64,000 nt of DNA, taken from the NCBI GenBank assembly GCA_000146045.2, contig BK006948.2, forward strand, positions 768,001 to 832,000, given 5' to 3'. The notes under the pieces were generated by a model. The model made no database searches. It was not told the DNA's origin and worked only from the letters and a program-made list of their open reading frames with translations. Shown one piece after another: positions 2,800 through 20,641 of this stretch; position 1 is the first letter of the stretch; the number at the start of each line of letters is the position of its first letter. The DNA is from TPA_inf: Saccharomyces (lineage: Eukaryota). The translations under genes were made by a program, and so were the position numbers.

Positions 2800-4113
2800 A
2801 TGCCAAAAAAGGTTTGGAAATCATCTACGCCTTCCACTTATGAACATATCTCCAGCTTAAGACCAAAATTTGTGTCTCGTGTGGACAATGTTCTGCACCA
2901 AAGGAAGTCCTTGACGTTCAGCAACGTTGTTGTTCCAGATAAAAAAAATAACACTCTAACCTCAAGTGTTATATACTCTCAAGGTAGTGATATCTACGAA
3001 ATTGACTTCGCTGTACCACTACAAGAAGCCGCTTCAGAACCGGTGAAAGACTATGGTGACGCCTTTGAAGGTATTGAAAACACCTCGTTGAGCCCAAAAT
3101 TCGTGTACCAGGGTGAAACTGTCTCCAAAATGGCCTACTTAGATAAGACTGGAGAAACTACATTATTGTCGATGTCTAAGAACGGGTCGTTGGCTTGGTT
3201 CAAAGAGGGTATAAAGGTCCCTATTCACATTGTACAGGAATTGATGGGTCCAGCAACCAGCTATGCCAGCATCCATTCTTTAACCAGACCTGGTGATCTA
3301 CCTGAAAAGGATTTCTCATTAGCCATCTCTGACTTCGGCATTTCCAATGATACCGAAACCATTGTGAAGTCTCAGAGTAATGGTGATGAAGAAGACAGTA
3401 TTTTGAAAATCATTGACAATGCCGGTAAGCCTGGTGAGATTCTACGTACTGTTCATGTGCCTGGTACCACTGTGACTCACACCGTAAGATTTTTCGACAA
3501 TCATATCTTTGCGTCTTGTTCAGATGACAATATTCTGAGGTTCTGGGACACTAGAACTTCCGACAAGCCTATATGGGTGTTGGGAGAACCAAAGAACGGA
3601 AAATTGACCTCGTTTGATTGCTCTCAGGTTTCCAACAACTTGTTTGTTACCGGTTTCAGTACGGGTATTATCAAGTTATGGGATGCCAGAGCGGCTGAAG
3701 CTGCCACCACTGATTTGACTTATAGACAAAACGGTGAAGATCCAATTCAGAATGAAATCGCTAACTTCTATCATGCCGGCGGTGATTCTGTTGTCGACGT
3801 CCAATTTTCTGCCACTTCAAGCTCTGAATTCTTTACTGTGGGCGGCACTGGTAATATTTACCACTGGAACACTGACTATTCCTTGTCAAAGTACAATCCT
3901 GACGATACCATTGCTCCTCCTCAAGATGCCACTGAAGAATCACAAACAAAATCTCTGAGATTCTTGCACAAGGGTGGAAGCAGAAGATCTCCAAAACAGA
4001 TTGGAAGAAGAAACACCGCCGCTTGGCATCCAGTTATTGAAAACTTGGTTGGTACTGTCGATGACGATAGTTTAGTCAGCATCTACAAGCCCTATACCGA
4101 GGAAAGCGAATAG
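2800..4113 (+). CDS. WTM1: WD40-repeat transcriptional modulator, 437 aa
   Basis: Full-length ORF, paralogous to WTM2, with a TATAAAGG box about 140 bp upstream. Matches YOR230W. Confidence 0.9.
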   Translation: MPKKVWKSSTPSTYEHISSLRPKFVSRVDNVLHQRKSLTFSNVVVPDKKNNTLTSSVIYSQGSDIYEIDFAVPLQEAASEPVKDYGDAFEGIENTSLSPKFVYQGETVSKMAYLDKTGETTLLSMSKNGSLAWFKEGIKVPIHIVQELMGPATSYASIHSLTRPGDLPEKDFSLAISDFGISNDTETIVKSQSNGDEEDSILKIIDNAGKPGEILRTVHVPGTTVTHTVRFFDNHIFASCSDDNILRFWDTRTSDKPIWVLGEPKNGKLTSFDCSQVSNNLFVTGFSTGIIKLWDARAAEAATTDLTYRQNGEDPIQNEIANFYHAGGDSVVDVQFSATSSSEFFTVGGTGNIYHWNTDYSLSKYNPDDTIAPPQDATEESQTKSLRFLHKGGSRRSPKQIGRRNTAAWHPVIENLVGTVDDDSLVSIYKPYTEESE

Positions 4114-4600
4114 TCGCCATGCTAAACGCGCGGAACAAGGCCATATTTATATATTTAATGCTTTTAACTATTATTAGTTTTTCTCACCCAGGGCTGGTTT
4201 CTTTACCCTGTGTGATGAAAGTGCGCGCCTAAAGTTATGTATGAGCTACTGTTAGTATATTTATTATTCAATATTTAATTAAACAATACTTACTACTGAT
4301 GAAAGATACCGTACACCTGCTGGCGAATAAGTCACTATACACGAGCAATTATATTTCTCAGGTCATTGCGACAATTGAAAAATCGGATCGACTGATTATC
4401 ATTAAGGCGTGTGACGGCTCAGAATAAGGAAGTTCTATTTTAAAGGGCAGCAAAAATTTGGCACAATTTAAAAAGAAAGTTGGTCTCTGGTAGGGTTGGA
4501 TCCGGTTTTTCATAACTTGCGTTTCATTTATGGTTGCGTATTTCTCGCAGTGTACATAGACCAAATTAACTCTATCCTTCCATTGCACAATTTGCCCAGT

Positions 4601-12106: not shown

Positions 12107-12596
12107 GTCGACGTACTTCAGTATGTAATATACCCCAAACATTTTACCCACAAAAAACCAGGATTTGAAAACTATAGCATCTAAAAGTCTTAGGTACTAG
12201 AGTTTTCATTTCGGAGCAGGCTTTTTGAAAAATTTAATTCAACCATTGCAGCAGCTTTTGACTAACACATTCTACAGTAGGATCATTTCTATAGGAATCG
12301 TCACTCTTTGACTCTTCAAAAGAGCCACTGAATCCAACTTGGTTGATGAGTCCCATAACCTTTGTACCCCAGAGTGAGAAACCGAAATTGAATCTAAATT
12401 AGCTTGGTCCGCAATCCTTAGCGGTTCGGCCATCTATAATTTTGAATAAAAATTTTGCTTTGCCGTTGCATTTGTAGTTTTTTCCTTTGGAAGTAATTAC
12501 AATATTTTATGGCGCGATGATCTTGACCCATCCTATGTACTTCTTTTTTGAAGGGATAGGGCTCTATGGGTGGGTACAAATGGCAGTCTGACAAGT
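12107..12596 (+). ncRNA. SNR17A: U3 box C/D small nucleolar RNA, gene copy A. Exon 1 is 12107..12120 and exon 2 is 12278..12596; the mature RNA is 333 nt.
   Basis: Begins GTCGACGTACTTCA|...TAGGATCATTTCTATAGGAATCGTCAC. Box C (GCGATGATC, about 12514) and box D (CTGA, 12588..12591). 3' end ...GGCAGUCUGACAAGU. Matches yeast U3. Confidence 0.93.
12121..12277 (+). other. SNR17A: Spliceosomal intron (157 nt) within the U3 snoRNA precursor
   Basis: 5' splice site GTATGT at 12121. Branch-like GACTAAC at 12260..12266. 3' splice site CAG at 12275..12277. Confidence 0.9.
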
Positions 12597-16588: not shown

Positions 16589-16856
16589 ACGTGTGGGAGT
16601 ATTGCAAAAACATAGTATATAAGCGTAAATCACTATATAAAGCCCAAAGAAGTTAGCACTAAAGCATCATTCATCGTTCAAAACTCCTCTCTCAAGTGAG
16701 AGAATTCGGCGCTGAAAAAAAGCTTTGTCAAAACCAAGAAAAAAACGTAGGATTGGACACGAGGTTCTTTTTTTAATGTAAACAAGAAGTGGCACTATAG
16801 CTGTGAAACTTCCAATACAATTGTATACCAAATAAGCTATTACAAATTGATTTAAA

Positions 16857-18744
16857 ATGGGTGTCGCAGATTTGATCAAGAAATTCGAAAGCATCTCAAA
16901 GGAAGAAGGCGATGCTACCGTTGATACAAACAGTTCATCAAAGCCTCTCAAATCAAACGATGAAACCAAAGAATTGCATCAACAAGAGTCTACTGCTGTT
17001 CCGCAAGAGGTTGACGTAAATGAAGAGTTTGAGAATGAACCAGAAACAATTAACAGTAGTAGAACTGCTGAGAAACCATTGGAAACAAACCTCCCAAAAC
17101 CTGAAACTAACGAAGAAGACGAAGAAGAGGGCTCCATGAGCGAGAATAAAATATATTCTAAAGGTGAAAATGCTGACATCAACGTTAATGATTTTCAAGA
17201 ATATAAAGAAATGGAAAATACTGGCGCTGAAGTTCTTGCAAGTAGTGTTGAAGAATCCGATGCTATTCAAGAAGGTGTGGCTGAGGAAACTGAAGGGATT
17301 GCTACTCCTAAACAAAAAGAAAACGAAAAAAATGATGAATCAGAAGAAGAATCTGCAAATAATGCATCTGAACCAGCCGAAGAATATTCTCAATCTGAAG
17401 AAGATGCTGACATCGAGCAATCTAATGGCAAAGAAACTGAAAATGCCGAAAACGCTTCTCAACAAGCTAATGATGGCTCTACAAGTACCACGACTTCTAA
17501 GAATAAGAAGAAAAAAAACAAAAAAAAAAACAAGAAGAAGAGAAATGGAAATGTTAACACCAACGCTAATGTCGACGACAGCACCAAAACCGGTGAAAAT
17601 GATGATACAACCGGCGACACCACGTCATCAACAACCTCCGCCATTCAAGAAGTGAATGATTTGGAAGTTGTTGATGACTCTTGTCTTAGGCATTGATCAA
17701 CAGCATAATAGGGAGCATTTGAAAGCGTTAACTCAGGACGTTAAAGAAGAGACGTTAGAGAATATTGCGCACGAGGGCAGAGGTGATAACACAGGCGATC
17801 AGAATGCAGTAGAAAAATCTGATTTCGAAAAATCAGATACAGAAGGTTCAAGAATAGGCCGCGACTTACCCTTTGAATTTGGAAAACGTAACTTGACCGA
17901 GGAATCTGACGTTTGGGATCATAACGCTTGGGATAATGTTGAGTGGGGTGAAGAACAAGTCCAGCAGGCGGAGGAAAAAATCAAAGAGCAGTTTAAGCAT
18001 CCTGTACCTGAGTTTGACAAAAAACTATACAATGAAAATCCGGCACGTTATTGGGACATTTTTTATAAAAACAACAAGGAAAACTTTTTCAAGGACAGAA
18101 AGTGGTTACAAATTGAATTTCCAATCTTATACGCATCTACCAGAAAAGACGCAGAACCCGTTACAATATTTGAAATTGGCTGTGGGGCAGGTAACACTTT
18201 TTTCCCGATCTTGAAAGATAATGAGAACGAAAACTTGAGGATAATAGCCGCAGATTTTGCTCCAAGAGCCGTCGAATTAGTTAAAAATTCTGAACAGTTC
18301 AACCCCAAGTACGGCCACGCAACAGTATGGGATTTGGCCAATCCTGACGGTAATTTACCTGATGGCGTCGAACCTCATTCTGTGGATATTGCAGTAATGA
18401 TCTTCGTTTTTAGTGCTTTAGCACCAAACCAATGGGATCAAGCCATGGATAACCTTCACAAAATTTTGAAACCAGGCGGTAAGATCATATTTCGTGATTA
18501 CGGTGCATATGATTTAACTCAAGTTAGATTCAAAAAGAACAGAATCCTAGAAGAGAACTTCTACGTTAGAGGTGATGGTACAAGAGTTTATTTTTTCTCT
18601 GAAGAAAAACTAAGAGAAATTTTCACGAAAAAGTACTTCTTGGAAAATAAAATTGGAACTGATAGAAGGTTGTTGGTTAACAGAAAAAGGCAACTAAAAA
18701 TGTACCGCTGCTGGGTACAAGCTGTGTTTGACGTTCCTCAATAG
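16857..18744 (+). CDS. ABP140: Actin-binding protein fused to a tRNA m3C32 methyltransferase (628 aa). Made from two reading frames joined by a +1 ribosomal frameshift. Frame 0 is 16857..17687 and frame +1 is 17689..18744.
   Basis: N-terminus MGVADLIKKFESISKEE, the Lifeact peptide. Acidic/K-rich low-complexity middle. C-terminal SAM-methyltransferase domain (IFEIGCGAGNT motif) that is open only in the +1 frame. CTT-AGG-C frameshift site at the junction. Confidence 0.9.
17501..17546 (+). repeat. A-rich run (A8-C-A11 plus AAG/AAA codons) encoding KNKKKKNKKKNKKKRN inside ABP140
   Basis: Read in the sequence. Consecutive AAA Lys codons / poly(A) lying within coding sequence. Confidence 0.9.
17685..17691 (+). 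other. ABP140: Programmed +1 ribosomal frameshift heptamer CTT-AGG-C. It is followed immediately by an in-frame stop (TGA at 17694..17696).
   Basis: Identical to the Ty1 frameshift heptamer. The zero-frame ORF stops 2 codons later, while the +1 frame continues for 351 codons encoding the methyltransferase domain. Confidence 0.88.
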
Positions 18745-18994
18745 GAAGTTCTGAGACAAGTACCACCTCCTCTCTCATCATAAAACAAGTAAAAGTTTTC
18801 TCGTCGCGCATATTATTTTGGTGATTGATTGTTTTTTCCTCCGATATCATCACTTATTACCTGTAATTTTATCTTTTTCTACCCCATAGAATTCGTCTTA
18901 TAAGTCTATACCCTCAAAACTATCTATCATTTTAATATTATCTGTCGCTTTAATTGTCTTATTTCTGAAGCTCACTGAAGAACATTGCTTTATT

Positions 18995-20641
18995 ATGCAT
19001 AAAGGAAAAAAAAATTACCCTAATTTGATTACTTCGTTTCGGATGAATTTGAAAAAAATCATATTGAACCATGACCGATTTAGCCATCCAGAAAGATGGA
19101 AAACAAACGCACTCTTAAGGTTCACCTTCGTGTATATAAAATTTCTCTTCGACTTGATGATAATCAAAAATCCATTAAGGATGGTTGGAAAAACTTATCG
19201 AGACGCTGTTACTGCGCTAAACTCTTTGCAGTCCAATTATGCCAACATCATGGCTATCCGTCAAACTGGTGATCGTAAAAACACTATGACATTATTGGAA
19301 ATGCATGAATGGTCTCGAAGAATTGGTTACTCTGCATCGGATTTCAATAAATTAAATATTGTTCATATCACTGGAACAAAAGGTAAAGGTTCTACTGCCG
19401 CATTTACTTCATCAATTCTAGGACAATATAAAGAACAATTACCACGTATCGGGCTATATACGTCTCCACATCTTAAGTCAGTGAGAGAAAGAATAAGAAT
19501 AAATGGGGAGCCAATTTCTGAAGAAAAATTTGCGAAGTACTTCTTTGAGGTTTGGGACCGTCTAGATAGTACAACCTCTTCTTTGGATAAATTCCCGCAC
19601 ATGATCCCGGGAAGTAAGCCTGGCTATTTCAAGTTCCTCACATTGCTTTCATTTCACACTTTTATACAAGAGGACTGCAAAAGCTGTGTCTACGAAGTCG
19701 GCGTCGGAGGTGAATTGGATAGCACTAATATAATTGAAAAGCCAATTGTCTGCGGTGTTACACTATTAGGAATAGACCATACTTTCATGCTTGGTGATAC
19801 TATTGAAGAAATTGCTTGGAATAAGGGAGGAATTTTCAAATCTGGAGCACCAGCATTCACCGTTGAGAAACAACCTCCTCAGGGATTAACAATATTGAAA
19901 GAAAGAGCTGAGGAGCGCAAAACAACGCTAACAGAAGTACCCCCATTTAAACAGTTGGAAAATGTCAAGCTTGGAATTGCTGGCGAGTTTCAAAAAAGTA
20001 ACGCCTCCCTTGCCGTTATGCTGGCTTCTGAGATCTTGCATACGTCCAATATATTGGAGGAGAAGATCAAATGCAGTTCGAATGCATCGATTCCAGAAAA
20101 ATTCATAATCGGTCTACAAAATACTAAGTGGGAAGGCAGATGTCAAGTACTAGAAAAGGGAAAAAACGTTTGGTACATTGATGGTGCTCACACCAAAGAT
20201 AGTATGGTAGCTGCATCAACATGGTTCAGAGATATGGTTCGATTGTCGAAGAGAAAGAAGATCTTGCTCTTCAACCAACAAAGCAGAGATGCCAACGCTC
20301 TTGTGAATAACCTGTACTCATCTGTTTCGCCAGAAATAACGTTCGATGATGTGATATTTACTACTAATGTCACTTGGAAATCAGGCTCATACAGCGCTGA
20401 CCTCGTTTCCATGAACACTTCTCAAGAAGATGTAGAAAAATTGAAAGTCCAGGAGTCATTAGTCAAGAATTGGAACAAAATAGACGATAATCGTGCTAAA
20501 ACGCATGTAACGGCTAGTATAGAGGAAGCAAATGAATTGATTGAAACGCTATACGATGAACCTGCTGATATATTTGTAACTGGTTCATTACATCTTGTTG
20601 GCGGATTATTGGTCGTTTTTGATAGAATAGATGTAAAGTAA
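18995..20641 (+). CDS. MET7: Folylpolyglutamate synthetase, 548 aa
   Basis: Mur-ligase/FPGS P-loop HITGTKGKGST. Conserved FPGS C-terminal domain. Confidence 0.9.
   Translation: MHKGKKNYPNLITSFRMNLKKIILNHDRFSHPERWKTNALLRFTFVYIKFLFDLMIIKNPLRMVGKTYRDAVTALNSLQSNYANIMAIRQTGDRKNTMTLLEMHEWSRRIGYSASDFNKLNIVHITGTKGKGSTAAFTSSILGQYKEQLPRIGLYTSPHLKSVRERIRINGEPISEEKFAKYFFEVWDRLDSTTSSLDKFPHMIPGSKPGYFKFLTLLSFHTFIQEDCKSCVYEVGVGGELDSTNIIEKPIVCGVTLLGIDHTFMLGDTIEEIAWNKGGIFKSGAPAFTVEKQPPQGLTILKERAEERKTTLTEVPPFKQLENVKLGIAGEFQKSNASLAVMLASEILHTSNILEEKIKCSSNASIPEKFIIGLQNTKWEGRCQVLEKGKNVWYIDGAHTKDSMVAASTWFRDMVRLSKRKKILLFNQQSRDANALVNNLYSSVSPEITFDDVIFTTNVTWKSGSYSADLVSMNTSQEDVEKLKVQESLVKNWNKIDDNRAKTHVTASIEEANELIETLYDEPADIFVTGSLHLVGGLLVVFDRIDVK

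What the first reader, a model, noticed from the sequence alone, without database searches (positions are those of the whole stretch)
16857..18744. Two reading frames joined by a +1 ribosomal frameshift at CTT-AGG-C (ABP140)
The zero-frame ORF (16857..17696) ends two codons after the heptamer CTT-AGG-C at 17685..17691. The +1 frame then runs 351 further codons and encodes a SAM-dependent methyltransferase fold. The upstream part carries the Lifeact actin-binding peptide (MGVADLIKKFESISKEE). CTT-AGG-C is the Ty1-type +1 slippery site: peptidyl-tRNA-Leu(UAG) on CUU, with a pause at the rare AGG Arg codon. The six-frame track artificially splits this gene into a 279-aa and a 362-aa ORF. It is one of very few chromosomal yeast genes expressed by programmed frameshifting, so it is the most mechanistically unusual feature in the window, though not novel.
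Basis: partly seen in the sequence, partly recalled or inferred. Interest (0 to 1): 0.75.

Follow-up and report, generated by a model that had tools for sequence, protein, structure and literature searches.

The report
ABP140 programmed +1 frameshift, already known

Summary
Confirmed and already known. ORF0 (16857..17696, 279 aa) carries CTT-AGG-C at 17685..17691 as codons 277-279, with the stop at codon 280. Skipping A17688 opens 351 further codons. The resulting 628-aa protein is identical at every residue to RefSeq NP_014882.4, Abp140p / tRNA(Thr) (cytosine(32)-N(3))-methyltransferase of S. cerevisiae S288C. The heptamer occurs once in the window, inside the 41-nt overlap of the two frames. 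It is the only invariant block across nine other Saccharomycetaceae loci that share the two-frame layout. There are no intron signals. The C-terminal half is a METTL6-like m3C methyltransferase (E = 1e-52). "Rare AGG" needs a qualifier, because the decoding tRNA is scarce, not the codon. One side lead: in three Hanseniaspora species the heptamer sits in a continuous ORF, and its short +1 frame encodes a Lys/Asn tail whose substitution pattern suggests it is translated. I found no paper describing this. It bears on why the frameshift exists.

The parts
16857..17687 (+). Zero-frame segment of ABP140: codons 1-277, Met to the Leu (CTT) on which the shift occurs
   Evidence: this frame gives MGVADLIKKFE... 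in all orthologs whose N-terminus is on the contig
16857..16907 (+). N-terminal 17 residues MGVADLIKKFESISKEE (the Lifeact actin-binding peptide)
   Evidence: 9 of the first 11 residues (M1, V3, A4, L6-E11) are invariant in alignment A2; Lifeact is the first 17 aa of Abp140 (PMC7842966)
17499..17546 (+). Lys/Asn patch KNKKKKNKKKNKKKRN in frame 0, encoded partly by an A8 run and an A11 run (17511-17518, 17520-17530)
   Evidence: similar patches lie 16-46 codons upstream of the heptamer in 7 Saccharomycetaceae loci and are absent in L001 and L010
17624..17678 (+). 55-nt RNA hairpin, the published 5' stimulator of ABP140 frameshifting
   Evidence: -27 kcal/mol, z = -7.4, 0 of 200 shuffles fold as well; same fold in the 111-nt context; described in PMC12661321
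17679..17684 (+). 6-nt (two-codon) spacer TCTTGT between hairpin and heptamer
   Evidence: the paper reports that adding one codon abolishes the stimulation
17685..17691 (+). Shift heptamer CTT-AGG-C (CUU_A.GG_C)
   Evidence: the only invariant block in the 10-locus alignment A1
17688..17688 (+). The A that is skipped; removing it gives a translation identical to NP_014882.4
17694..17696 (+). Zero-frame stop TGA (codon 280); ribosomes that do not shift end here and release a 279-aa product
   Evidence: a zero-frame stop lies 3-7 codons after CTT in every frameshift-bearing ortholog
17689..18744 (+). +1-frame segment: 351 codons (Gly278 to Gln628) plus TAG
   Evidence: the +1 peptide is conserved from the first codons after the heptamer (GI.QQHN.E.L.ALT)
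17965..18732 (+). METTL6/Trm140-type m3C32 tRNA methyltransferase region (residues 370-625)
   Evidence: phmmer against PDB: METTL6 chains 8owx, 8p7b, 7f1e, E = 1e-52; Pfam Methyltransf_12, _23, _25 and _11
18172..18195 (+). SAM-binding motif I, EIGCGAGN (residues 439-446)
   Evidence: read from the sequence; invariant in alignment A2

Best explanation
The region is the S. cerevisiae gene ABP140/TRM140 (YOR239W), expressed by Ty1-type programmed +1 ribosomal frameshifting. Ribosomes start at ATG 16857 and translate 277 zero-frame codons: the Lifeact actin-binding peptide, an acidic region, a Lys/Asn patch and a Ser/Thr-rich stretch. With CUU in the P site and AGG in the A site, decoding of AGG is slow because its tRNA-Arg(CCU) comes from a single gene. 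Peptidyl-tRNA-Leu(UAG), which pairs only weakly with CUU, re-pairs one base downstream on UUA. The abundant tRNA-Gly(GCC) then reads GGC, and translation continues in the +1 frame through 351 codons that encode an m3C32 tRNA methyltransferase. A hairpin at 17624..17678 re-forms behind the ribosome, two codons upstream of the site, and raises the shift from about 40% to about 60%. The remaining ribosomes stop at TGA 17694 and release a 279-aa protein. Shown here: the anatomy, the identity of the product, the conservation of the heptamer, the fold family and the hairpin. Taken from the literature: the tRNA basis, the efficiencies and the hairpin's effect.
For: Anatomy and frame arithmetic. The single heptamer in the window lies in the 41-nt frame overlap. 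The fused 628-aa translation equals NP_014882.4, Abp140p / tRNA(Thr) (cytosine(32)-N(3))-methyltransferase of S288C (also P0001, 99% identity). The same two-frame layout with CTTAGGC in frame 0 occurs in nine other distinct Saccharomycetaceae loci, including N. dairenensis, T. globosa, K. marxianus and L. nothofagi. The heptamer is the only invariant block while the flanking codons vary. Annotated spans in L010, L011 and L013 are 3n+1 nt long. The +1 peptide is conserved from the first codon after the site, and N. dairenensis has no +1-frame ATG until 315 nt downstream. T. phaffii encodes the same two domains in one frame without the heptamer, which shows that the fusion is the functional product. 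METTL6 homology is E = 1e-52. The hairpin has z = -6.4 to -7.4 and ends 6 nt before the site. Literature: PMC5009743, PMC12661321, PMC12719033, and K. marxianus ribosome profiling in bioRxiv 10.1101/2022.03.25.485750.
Against: Nothing found here contradicts it. Limits: no translation data can be produced with these tools. The tRNA part rests wholly on the literature, because the window has no tRNA genes. AGG is not rare by codon usage in this window. The hairpin is not a general feature of the system: it is significant only in S. cerevisiae, the close relative L001 and K. marxianus, and absent in 7 other Saccharomycetaceae lineages and 3 Hanseniaspora. My two-sequence covariation test is not significant on its own.
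Confidence: 0.96

Rival explanations
1. A short spliceosomal intron (3n+1 nt) across the junction joins the two frames at the RNA level.
For: Several automated S. cerevisiae gene models bridge the junction this way: P0002 (596 aa) omits 32 residues, and P0003 and P0006 omit 11 residues. 607-, 616- and 617-aa models sit in the same cluster.
Against: There is no GTATGT or close 5' splice-site variant and no TACTAAC-type branch point in 16700..18800 apart from one AACTAAC at 17105, far upstream. The models disagree with one another on what is removed, and an 11-residue skip implies a ~34-nt 'intron', shorter than any known yeast intron (background knowledge). The exact heptamer is conserved in nine other lineages whose flanks differ, which an intron would not require. 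RefSeq and the literature give the 628-aa frameshift product.
Confidence: 0.01
2. These are two independent genes: a 279-aa actin-binding protein and a 362-aa methyltransferase started at ATG 17656 in the +1 frame, with no frameshift.
For: The +1 frame has ATGs at 17656 and 17674. Gene callers list the 362-aa ORF as a protein (P0088-P0090). The methyltransferase exists without any N-terminal extension in Ascoidea and Lipomyces.
Against: In N. dairenensis the +1 frame has no ATG from its opening until 315 nt past the heptamer, beyond conserved sequence. +1-frame conservation starts exactly at the heptamer, not at an ATG. T. phaffii and Hanseniaspora encode both domains in one ORF. An internal ATG about 800 nt into an mRNA, behind many AUGs, with T at position -3, is a poor initiator (inference). 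Reporter tests excluded re-initiation (PMC12661321).
Confidence: 0.02
3. This is a real 1-bp frameshift mutation or a sequencing error, so the locus is a pseudogene in this strain.
For: Read naively, the gene is interrupted by a frame change.
Against: The same interruption, at the same heptamer, is found in nine other Saccharomycetaceae loci from different genera. Both frames are conserved on their own sides of the site. The translation matches the reference protein.
Confidence: 0.005
4. The shift is real but occurs without P-site slippage (the Ty3-like mode): the incoming Gly-tRNA binds the +1 codon GGC out of frame while peptidyl-tRNA-Leu stays on CUU.
For: This mode has been proposed for other yeast sites (GCG_AGU_U) where re-pairing is impossible (PMC12661321). 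Nothing in the sequence alone tells the two modes apart.
Against: CUU to UUA re-pairing is possible for tRNA-Leu(UAG). The ABP140 hairpin stimulates only heptamers where P-site re-pairing is possible, which the authors take as evidence that CUU_AGG_C uses slippage (PMC12661321).
Confidence: 0.08

Closest known systems
ABP140 / TRM140 (YOR239W) of S. cerevisiae
   Same: Identical. The fused 628-aa translation equals NP_014882.4. The site numbering matches the review (codons 277-279, stop at 280). The locus lies between a 306-aa ORF and a Mur-ligase-type (folylpolyglutamate synthase-like) gene, as in the orthologous loci.
   Different: Nothing.
Ty1 TYA-TYB (gag-pol) +1 frameshift site
   Same: The same 7-nt site CUU_AGG_C and the same proposed tRNA mechanism. 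The heptamer alone gives about 40% frameshifting (PMC12661321, PMC5009743).
   Different: ABP140 is a chromosomal cellular gene. Its context raises efficiency to about 60% through a 5' hairpin, whereas the Ty1 context lowers it to about 20%.
Other S. cerevisiae chromosomal +1 frameshift genes: YFS1/YPL034W and LLP1 (CUU_AGG_C), EST3 (CUU_AGU_U), OAZ1 (GCG_UGA_C)
   Same: All use programmed +1 shifting at a slow A-site codon. YFS1 and LLP1 use the identical heptamer.
   Different: In YFS1 and LLP1 the site is near the 5' end and has no context stimulator. OAZ1 is polyamine-regulated and uses a stop codon in the A site. In ABP140 the site joins two long domains of unrelated function.
METTL2 / METTL6 / METTL8 and fission-yeast Trm140/Trm141 m3C32 tRNA methyltransferases
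   Same: Residues 370-625 align with human METTL6 over the whole catalytic domain (E = 1e-52). The SAM motif EIGCGAGN is invariant.
   Different: Those enzymes have no actin-binding N-terminal extension and no frameshift. The extension appears only in Saccharomycetaceae and Hanseniaspora among the homologs seen.

Membership tests
Ty1-type +1 programmed ribosomal frameshift site | Heptamer CUU-AGG-C with CUU as a zero-frame codon | tested here: met
   17685..17691; (17685-16857) mod 3 = 0, codon 277
Ty1-type +1 programmed ribosomal frameshift site | The zero frame closes just downstream, and the +1 frame is open across the site and encodes a conserved protein | tested here: met
   TGA at codon 280; the +1 frame is open 17656..18744; methyltransferase domain found
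Ty1-type +1 programmed ribosomal frameshift site | The heptamer is conserved at the nucleotide level in orthologs, including synonymous positions and the skipped base | tested here: met
   Invariant CTTAGGC in 10 of 10 frameshift-bearing loci, with mean column identity of 56% in the surrounding alignment
Ty1-type +1 programmed ribosomal frameshift site | P-site tRNA-Leu(UAG) reads CUU weakly and can re-pair on UUA; no tRNA-Leu(IAG) in the organism | not testable with these tools
   No tRNA genes in the window; literature only (PMC5009743; PMC12719033)
Ty1-type +1 programmed ribosomal frameshift site | Slow zero-frame A-site codon (scarce tRNA-Arg(CCU)) and a fast +1 codon (abundant tRNA-Gly(GCC)) | not testable with these tools
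   Literature: one tRNA-Arg(CCU) gene against up to 18 tRNA-Gly(GCC) genes (PMC12661321). Codon usage in the window does not itself mark AGG as rare
Ty1-type +1 programmed ribosomal frameshift site | A trans-frame product is demonstrated | not testable with these tools
   Literature: about 60% by dual-luciferase reporter and by ribosome profiling (PMC12661321)
ABP140/TRM140 gene | Product identical or nearly identical to Abp140p | tested here: met
   Exact-sequence look-up returns NP_014882.4 of S. cerevisiae S288C
ABP140/TRM140 gene | N-terminal 17-residue actin-binding peptide (Lifeact) | tested here: met
   MGVADLIKKFESISKEE at residues 1-17; actin binding itself comes from the literature
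ABP140/TRM140 gene | C-terminal m3C32 tRNA methyltransferase domain | tested here: met
   METTL6 homology E = 1e-52; Pfam methyltransferase families above cut-off; orthologs named tRNA(Thr) (cytosine(32)-N(3))-methyltransferase. Enzyme activity comes from the literature (D'Silva 2011 and Noma 2011, cited; not readable here)
5' stem-loop stimulator of ABP140 frameshifting | A stable hairpin whose base lies two codons (6 nt) upstream of the heptamer | tested here: met
   17624..17678, -27 kcal/mol, z = -7.4; spacer 17679..17684
5' stem-loop stimulator of ABP140 frameshifting | Conservation or covariation of the helix in relatives | tested here: inconclusive
   93% of cells paired between the window and L001, with one compensatory pair (A-U to G-C), not beyond shuffles with only 2 sequences. 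Hairpins with z = -4.6 (L001) and -4.3 (K. marxianus, different sequence, main helix also ending 6 nt before the heptamer). No significant fold in 7 other Saccharomycetaceae lineages. The paper reports covariation and reduced synonymous rates within Saccharomyces
Spliceosomal intron (considered as an alternative) | GTATGT-type 5' splice site and TACTAAC-type branch point flanking a 3n+1 segment | tested here: not met
   None in 16700..18800 except AACTAAC at 17105

The most novel reading that the evidence does not exclude
The CUU_AGG_C site of ABP140 is older than the family Saccharomycetaceae. Its conserved job would be to divide ribosomes between two proteins, a short Lifeact-acidic-Lys/Asn protein and a long methyltransferase fusion, not merely to 'repair' a split gene. 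In three Hanseniaspora species (L015, L016/L017, L018) the ortholog is one continuous ORF, yet CTTAGGC sits in frame 0 at the homologous place, 48-51 codons before the RLGRDDPF motif. The +1 frame there is a 17-19-codon Lys/Asn tail ending in TAA (GKNKKKKNKKKNNKKKT*, GKKKKNNKNKKKKKNNKKK*, GKKKKNNKNKKKKKNNKRK*). That tail resembles the patch KNKKKKNKKKNKKK which S. cerevisiae carries in frame 0. If this is right, the frame logic is inverted in Hanseniaspora (a shift gives the short form). The 279-aa non-shifted product of the window's ORF0 would then be a functional protein, not waste.
Probability: 0.35. Interest if true: 0.55.

Novelty: already known. Interest (0 to 1): 0.18.

Why it matters
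For the window itself it matters only as a correct annotation: two adjacent ORFs are one gene, and the 628-aa product needs a one-base skip at 17688. Many public gene models of this locus get it wrong, with invented introns or the 362-aa ORF alone. The biology is textbook: ABP140 is one of five chromosomal +1 frameshift genes in S. cerevisiae and the source of the Lifeact probe. What remains open in the literature is why the frameshift has been kept for roughly 150 million years ('the significance of the frameshifting... is unknown', PMC5009743). The Hanseniaspora arrangement found in passing offers a natural experiment on that question.

Tried and rejected
1. Intron signals across the junction: none found.
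2. tRNA genes in the window, to test the tRNA part of the mechanism: none.
3. The primary papers (D'Silva 2011, PMC3096042; Noma 2011, PMC3096043; Kilchert & Spang 2011, PMC3181485) are not held. Enzyme activity and mRNA localisation are therefore cited through reviews.
4. Stem-loop conservation: I expected it to follow the heptamer. It does not, because it is significant in only 3 of 13 lineages, so I treat it as a lineage-specific enhancer.
5. Two-sequence covariation count for the hairpin: uninformative.
6. Third-position test for +1-frame constraint in Hanseniaspora (all E/Q/K codons A-ending): weak, P = 0.15 and 0.04, because GAA and CAA dominate these genes anyway. I rely on the substitution pattern between L016 and L018 instead.
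7. The metagenome scan for more Hanseniaspora loci gave only two, one a duplicate of H. uvarum.
8. K/N patch as a universal feature: rejected, since it is absent from frame 0 in L001 and N. dairenensis.
9. No structure prediction was run. Sequence homology to solved METTL6 structures was already decisive.

Full report
**1. Observation.**
- An ATG at 16857 opens a 279-codon ORF ending ...DDSCLRH-TGA at 17696.
- CTT-AGG-C occupies 17685..17691, with CTT as zero-frame codon 277.
- From GGC at 17689 the +1 frame runs 351 sense codons to TAG at 18742-18744 without a stop.
- The +1 frame is open only from 17656, so the two frames overlap by 41 nt.
- Joining codons 1-277 to the +1 frame gives 628 residues with the junction DDSCL-GIDQQ.
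- The mechanical ORF list shows a 279-aa and a 362-aa ORF.

**2. Chance.**
CTTAGGC occurs once in the 64-kb window on both strands, where shuffles give 4.1. So the motif is not over-represented. The signal is its position: about 4e-4 copies are expected in the 13 in-frame positions where a +1 shift would be productive.

**3. Identity.**
- An exact-sequence look-up of the 628-aa fusion returns NP_014882.4, Abp140p of S. cerevisiae S288C, also named tRNA(Thr) (cytosine(32)-N(3))-methyltransferase.
- The homolog search gave Abp140p of strain YJM1450 at 99% identity over 100% of the query.
- The C-terminal half hits Pfam methyltransferase families above their cut-offs, and the N-terminal half hits nothing.
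- Residues 370-625 align with human METTL6, a solved m3C32 tRNA methyltransferase, at E = 1e-52.
- The SAM motif EIGCGAGN is invariant among orthologs.
- The downstream neighbour (18995..20641) has Mur-ligase domains, as do the neighbours in the orthologous loci.

**4. Independent test from related sequences.**
I fetched the orthologous locus from other yeasts.
- Nine further distinct Saccharomycetaceae loci have an upstream ORF overlapping the start of the methyltransferase frame. Named species are Naumovozyma dairenensis, Torulaspora globosa, Kluyveromyces marxianus and Lachancea nothofagi. The rest are a close Saccharomyces relative (L001) and four unnamed assemblies.
- Where the contig reaches it, that upstream ORF begins MGVADLIKKFE (MAVADLIKKFE in N. 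dairenensis).
- Each locus has CTTAGGC in frame 0 inside the overlap, and a zero-frame stop 3-7 codons after CTT.
- In the alignment of the junctions, the heptamer is the only invariant block. The preceding codon is TGT, TCG, TCA, ACG or TCT, and the bases after the heptamer also differ.
- The protein needs only Leu-Gly at this point. Invariance of the Leu codon, the skipped A and the third base of the Gly codon therefore shows selection on the nucleotides.
- The +1 peptide is conserved from the first codon after the site.
- Three annotated spans are 3n+1 nt long, so those records also model a one-base skip.
- Tetrapisispora phaffii has lost the heptamer and encodes MAVAELIKKFE... plus the methyltransferase in one frame. 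This shows that the fusion is the selected product.

**5. Rivals.**
- **Intron:** there are no 5' splice-site or branch-point motifs near the junction. The gene models that bridge it by skipping 32 or 11 residues disagree with each other, so they are artefacts.
- **Independent initiation of the methyltransferase:** unlikely. N. dairenensis has no +1-frame ATG until 315 nt past the site, and conservation starts at the heptamer rather than at an ATG.
- **Mutation or sequencing error:** excluded by the conservation across genera.

**6. Mechanism.**
This part rests on the literature. The heptamer alone gives about 40% +1 shifting. The reasons given are:
- tRNA-Leu(UAG) pairs weakly with CUU and can re-pair on UUA.
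- AGG is read by the product of a single tRNA-Arg(CCU) gene.
- GGC is read by an abundant tRNA-Gly (PMC12661321; PMC5009743; PMC12719033).

In this window AGG is not rare by usage, at 9.4 per 1000 codons, so 'rare codon' should read 'codon with a scarce tRNA'.

ABP140 shifts at about 60% by reporter and by ribosome profiling. The cause is a hairpin ending 6 nt upstream of the site, and adding one codon to the spacer abolishes the effect. I find that hairpin at 17624..17678 (-27 kcal/mol, z = -7.4), with the spacer TCTTGT at 17679..17684. It is also significant in L001 (z = -4.6, one compensatory pair) and in K. marxianus (z = -4.3, different sequence, main helix ending 6 nt before the heptamer). 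It is not significant in seven other Saccharomycetaceae lineages. The heptamer is therefore the core of the system and the hairpin a lineage-specific enhancer.

**7. Comparison and novelty.**
The feature is not merely like ABP140. It is ABP140, and every defining feature that could be tested here was met. It is one of five chromosomal +1 frameshift genes now listed for S. cerevisiae: ABP140, EST3, OAZ1, YFS1 and LLP1. The finding is correct and already known, so the interest score is low.

**8. Side lead.**
Hanseniaspora proteins begin MGVADLIKKFD and read straight through '...S-N-L-R-Q-E...' into the methyltransferase. DNA from three species shows the following:
- The species are H. valbyensis (L015), H. 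uvarum (L016, with L017 identical over the junction) and a third species (L018).
- L-R-Q is encoded by CTT-AGG-CAA, so the heptamer is present in frame 0, 48-51 codons before the RLGRDDPF motif. The distance in Saccharomycetaceae is 40-59 codons.
- The +1 frame after it is only 17-19 codons long and encodes a Lys/Asn patch followed by TAA.
- The same bases read in frame 0 give a run made only of E, Q and K (plus one Asn in H. valbyensis), which ends exactly where the +1 frame stops.
- These proteins have no Lys/Asn patch in frame 0. Most Saccharomycetaceae orthologs carry one 16-46 codons upstream of the heptamer.
- Between L016 and L018, four of the five differences inside the +1 ORF are E-K swaps in frame 0 but silent in +1. 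The fifth is silent in frame 0 and K to R in +1.
- CTT is 4-10% of Leu codons and AGG 5-10% of Arg codons in these genes.

This pattern suggests that the +1 tail is translated. Hanseniaspora would then use the same site with inverted logic to make a short Lifeact-acidic-Lys/Asn protein alongside the long fusion.

Caveats: there are only three species with DNA. Low-complexity GAA-rich sequence gives AAG-rich +1 frames for free. The codon-ending test is weak. The tRNA repertoire of Hanseniaspora could not be checked. The Lys/Asn patch is not universal.

The accessible literature says that no species outside Saccharomycetaceae requires frameshifting for ABP140, which remains true. I found no paper that mentions Hanseniaspora together with ABP140.

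Noticed in passing
L015:2191-2248, L016:2158-2221, L018:980-1043 (L017:160-223 matches L016 there): In three Hanseniaspora species the ABP140 ortholog is one continuous ORF, yet it keeps CTTAGGC in frame 0. The +1 frame after it encodes a 17-19-codon Lys/Asn tail plus TAA. The substitutions between L016 and L018 are silent in +1 but are E-K swaps in frame 0. I found no description of this in the searchable literature.
   Followed up: partly
L014:3001-4278 (Tetrapisispora phaffii, P0012): The heptamer and the two-frame layout are absent. The Lifeact-like N-terminus (MAVAELIKKFE) and the methyltransferase are in one 425-aa ORF. This is a second loss of the frameshift, besides the published S. 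castellii case.
   Followed up: partly
window 12107-12596 (+): A U3 snoRNA gene (Rfam Fungi_U3, 213 bits) is interrupted by an intron. Exon 1 (GTCGACGTACTTCA) is at 12107-12120, GTATGT is at 12121, a branch-point-like GACTAAC lies near 12260, and exon 2 starts at 12277. The Rfam hit starts inside the intron.
   Followed up: partly
window 17511-17530 (+): The Lys/Asn patch of ORF0 is encoded with an A8 run and an A11 run. The A11 run is one of only six A runs of 11 or more in the window (+ strand). Orthologs encode the same patch mostly with AAG and have no run longer than 8. Long A runs are known ribosome-sliding and transcription-slippage sites. A +1 slip here would end at the stop at 17653-17655.
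   Followed up: partly
window 17622-17641 (+): The 5' arm of the stimulatory hairpin encodes the Ser/Thr-rich run T-S-S-T-T-S, which the Atkins review flags as 'of unknown significance' (Trm140 modifies tRNA-Thr and tRNA-Ser). The 3' arm encodes VVDD, part of a LEVVDD motif that is also kept in L005, which has no hairpin.
   Followed up: no
proteins P0002, P0003, P0006 and P0091-P0098; equivalent to window ~17590-17710: Many public S. cerevisiae gene models for this locus bridge the frameshift with invented introns (563-, 593-596-, 607-, 616- and 617-aa products) or list only the 362-aa ORF. The models disagree on which residues are removed.
   Followed up: partly
L012:3001-5531 (K. marxianus DMKU3-1042, P0030): The 671-aa annotated protein fuses an upstream ACPS (phosphopantetheinyl transferase) gene to the methyltransferase. 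The true ORF0 starts at 3824 with MGVADLIKKFE and has the heptamer at 4487. A preprint reports re-annotation of this gene.
   Followed up: no
proteins P0040, P0038 (Wickerhamomyces): The domain order differs here. A short N-terminus MGLKKFIKSFF is followed by the methyltransferase, then long acidic repeats, and the Lys/Asn patch (...NKNKNKKKKNKKKGKK) sits at the very C-terminus. Ascoidea and Lipomyces homologs have the methyltransferase only.
   Followed up: no
window 17694-17696 and the equivalent positions in L001-L013: In every frameshift-bearing lineage the zero-frame stop follows within 3-7 codons of CTT, and the zero-frame tail is not conserved beyond Arg (RH*, RHQSTT*, RPSST*, RQD*, RHF*, RP*, RHP*). 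This suggests selection for prompt termination of ribosomes that do not shift.
   Followed up: no
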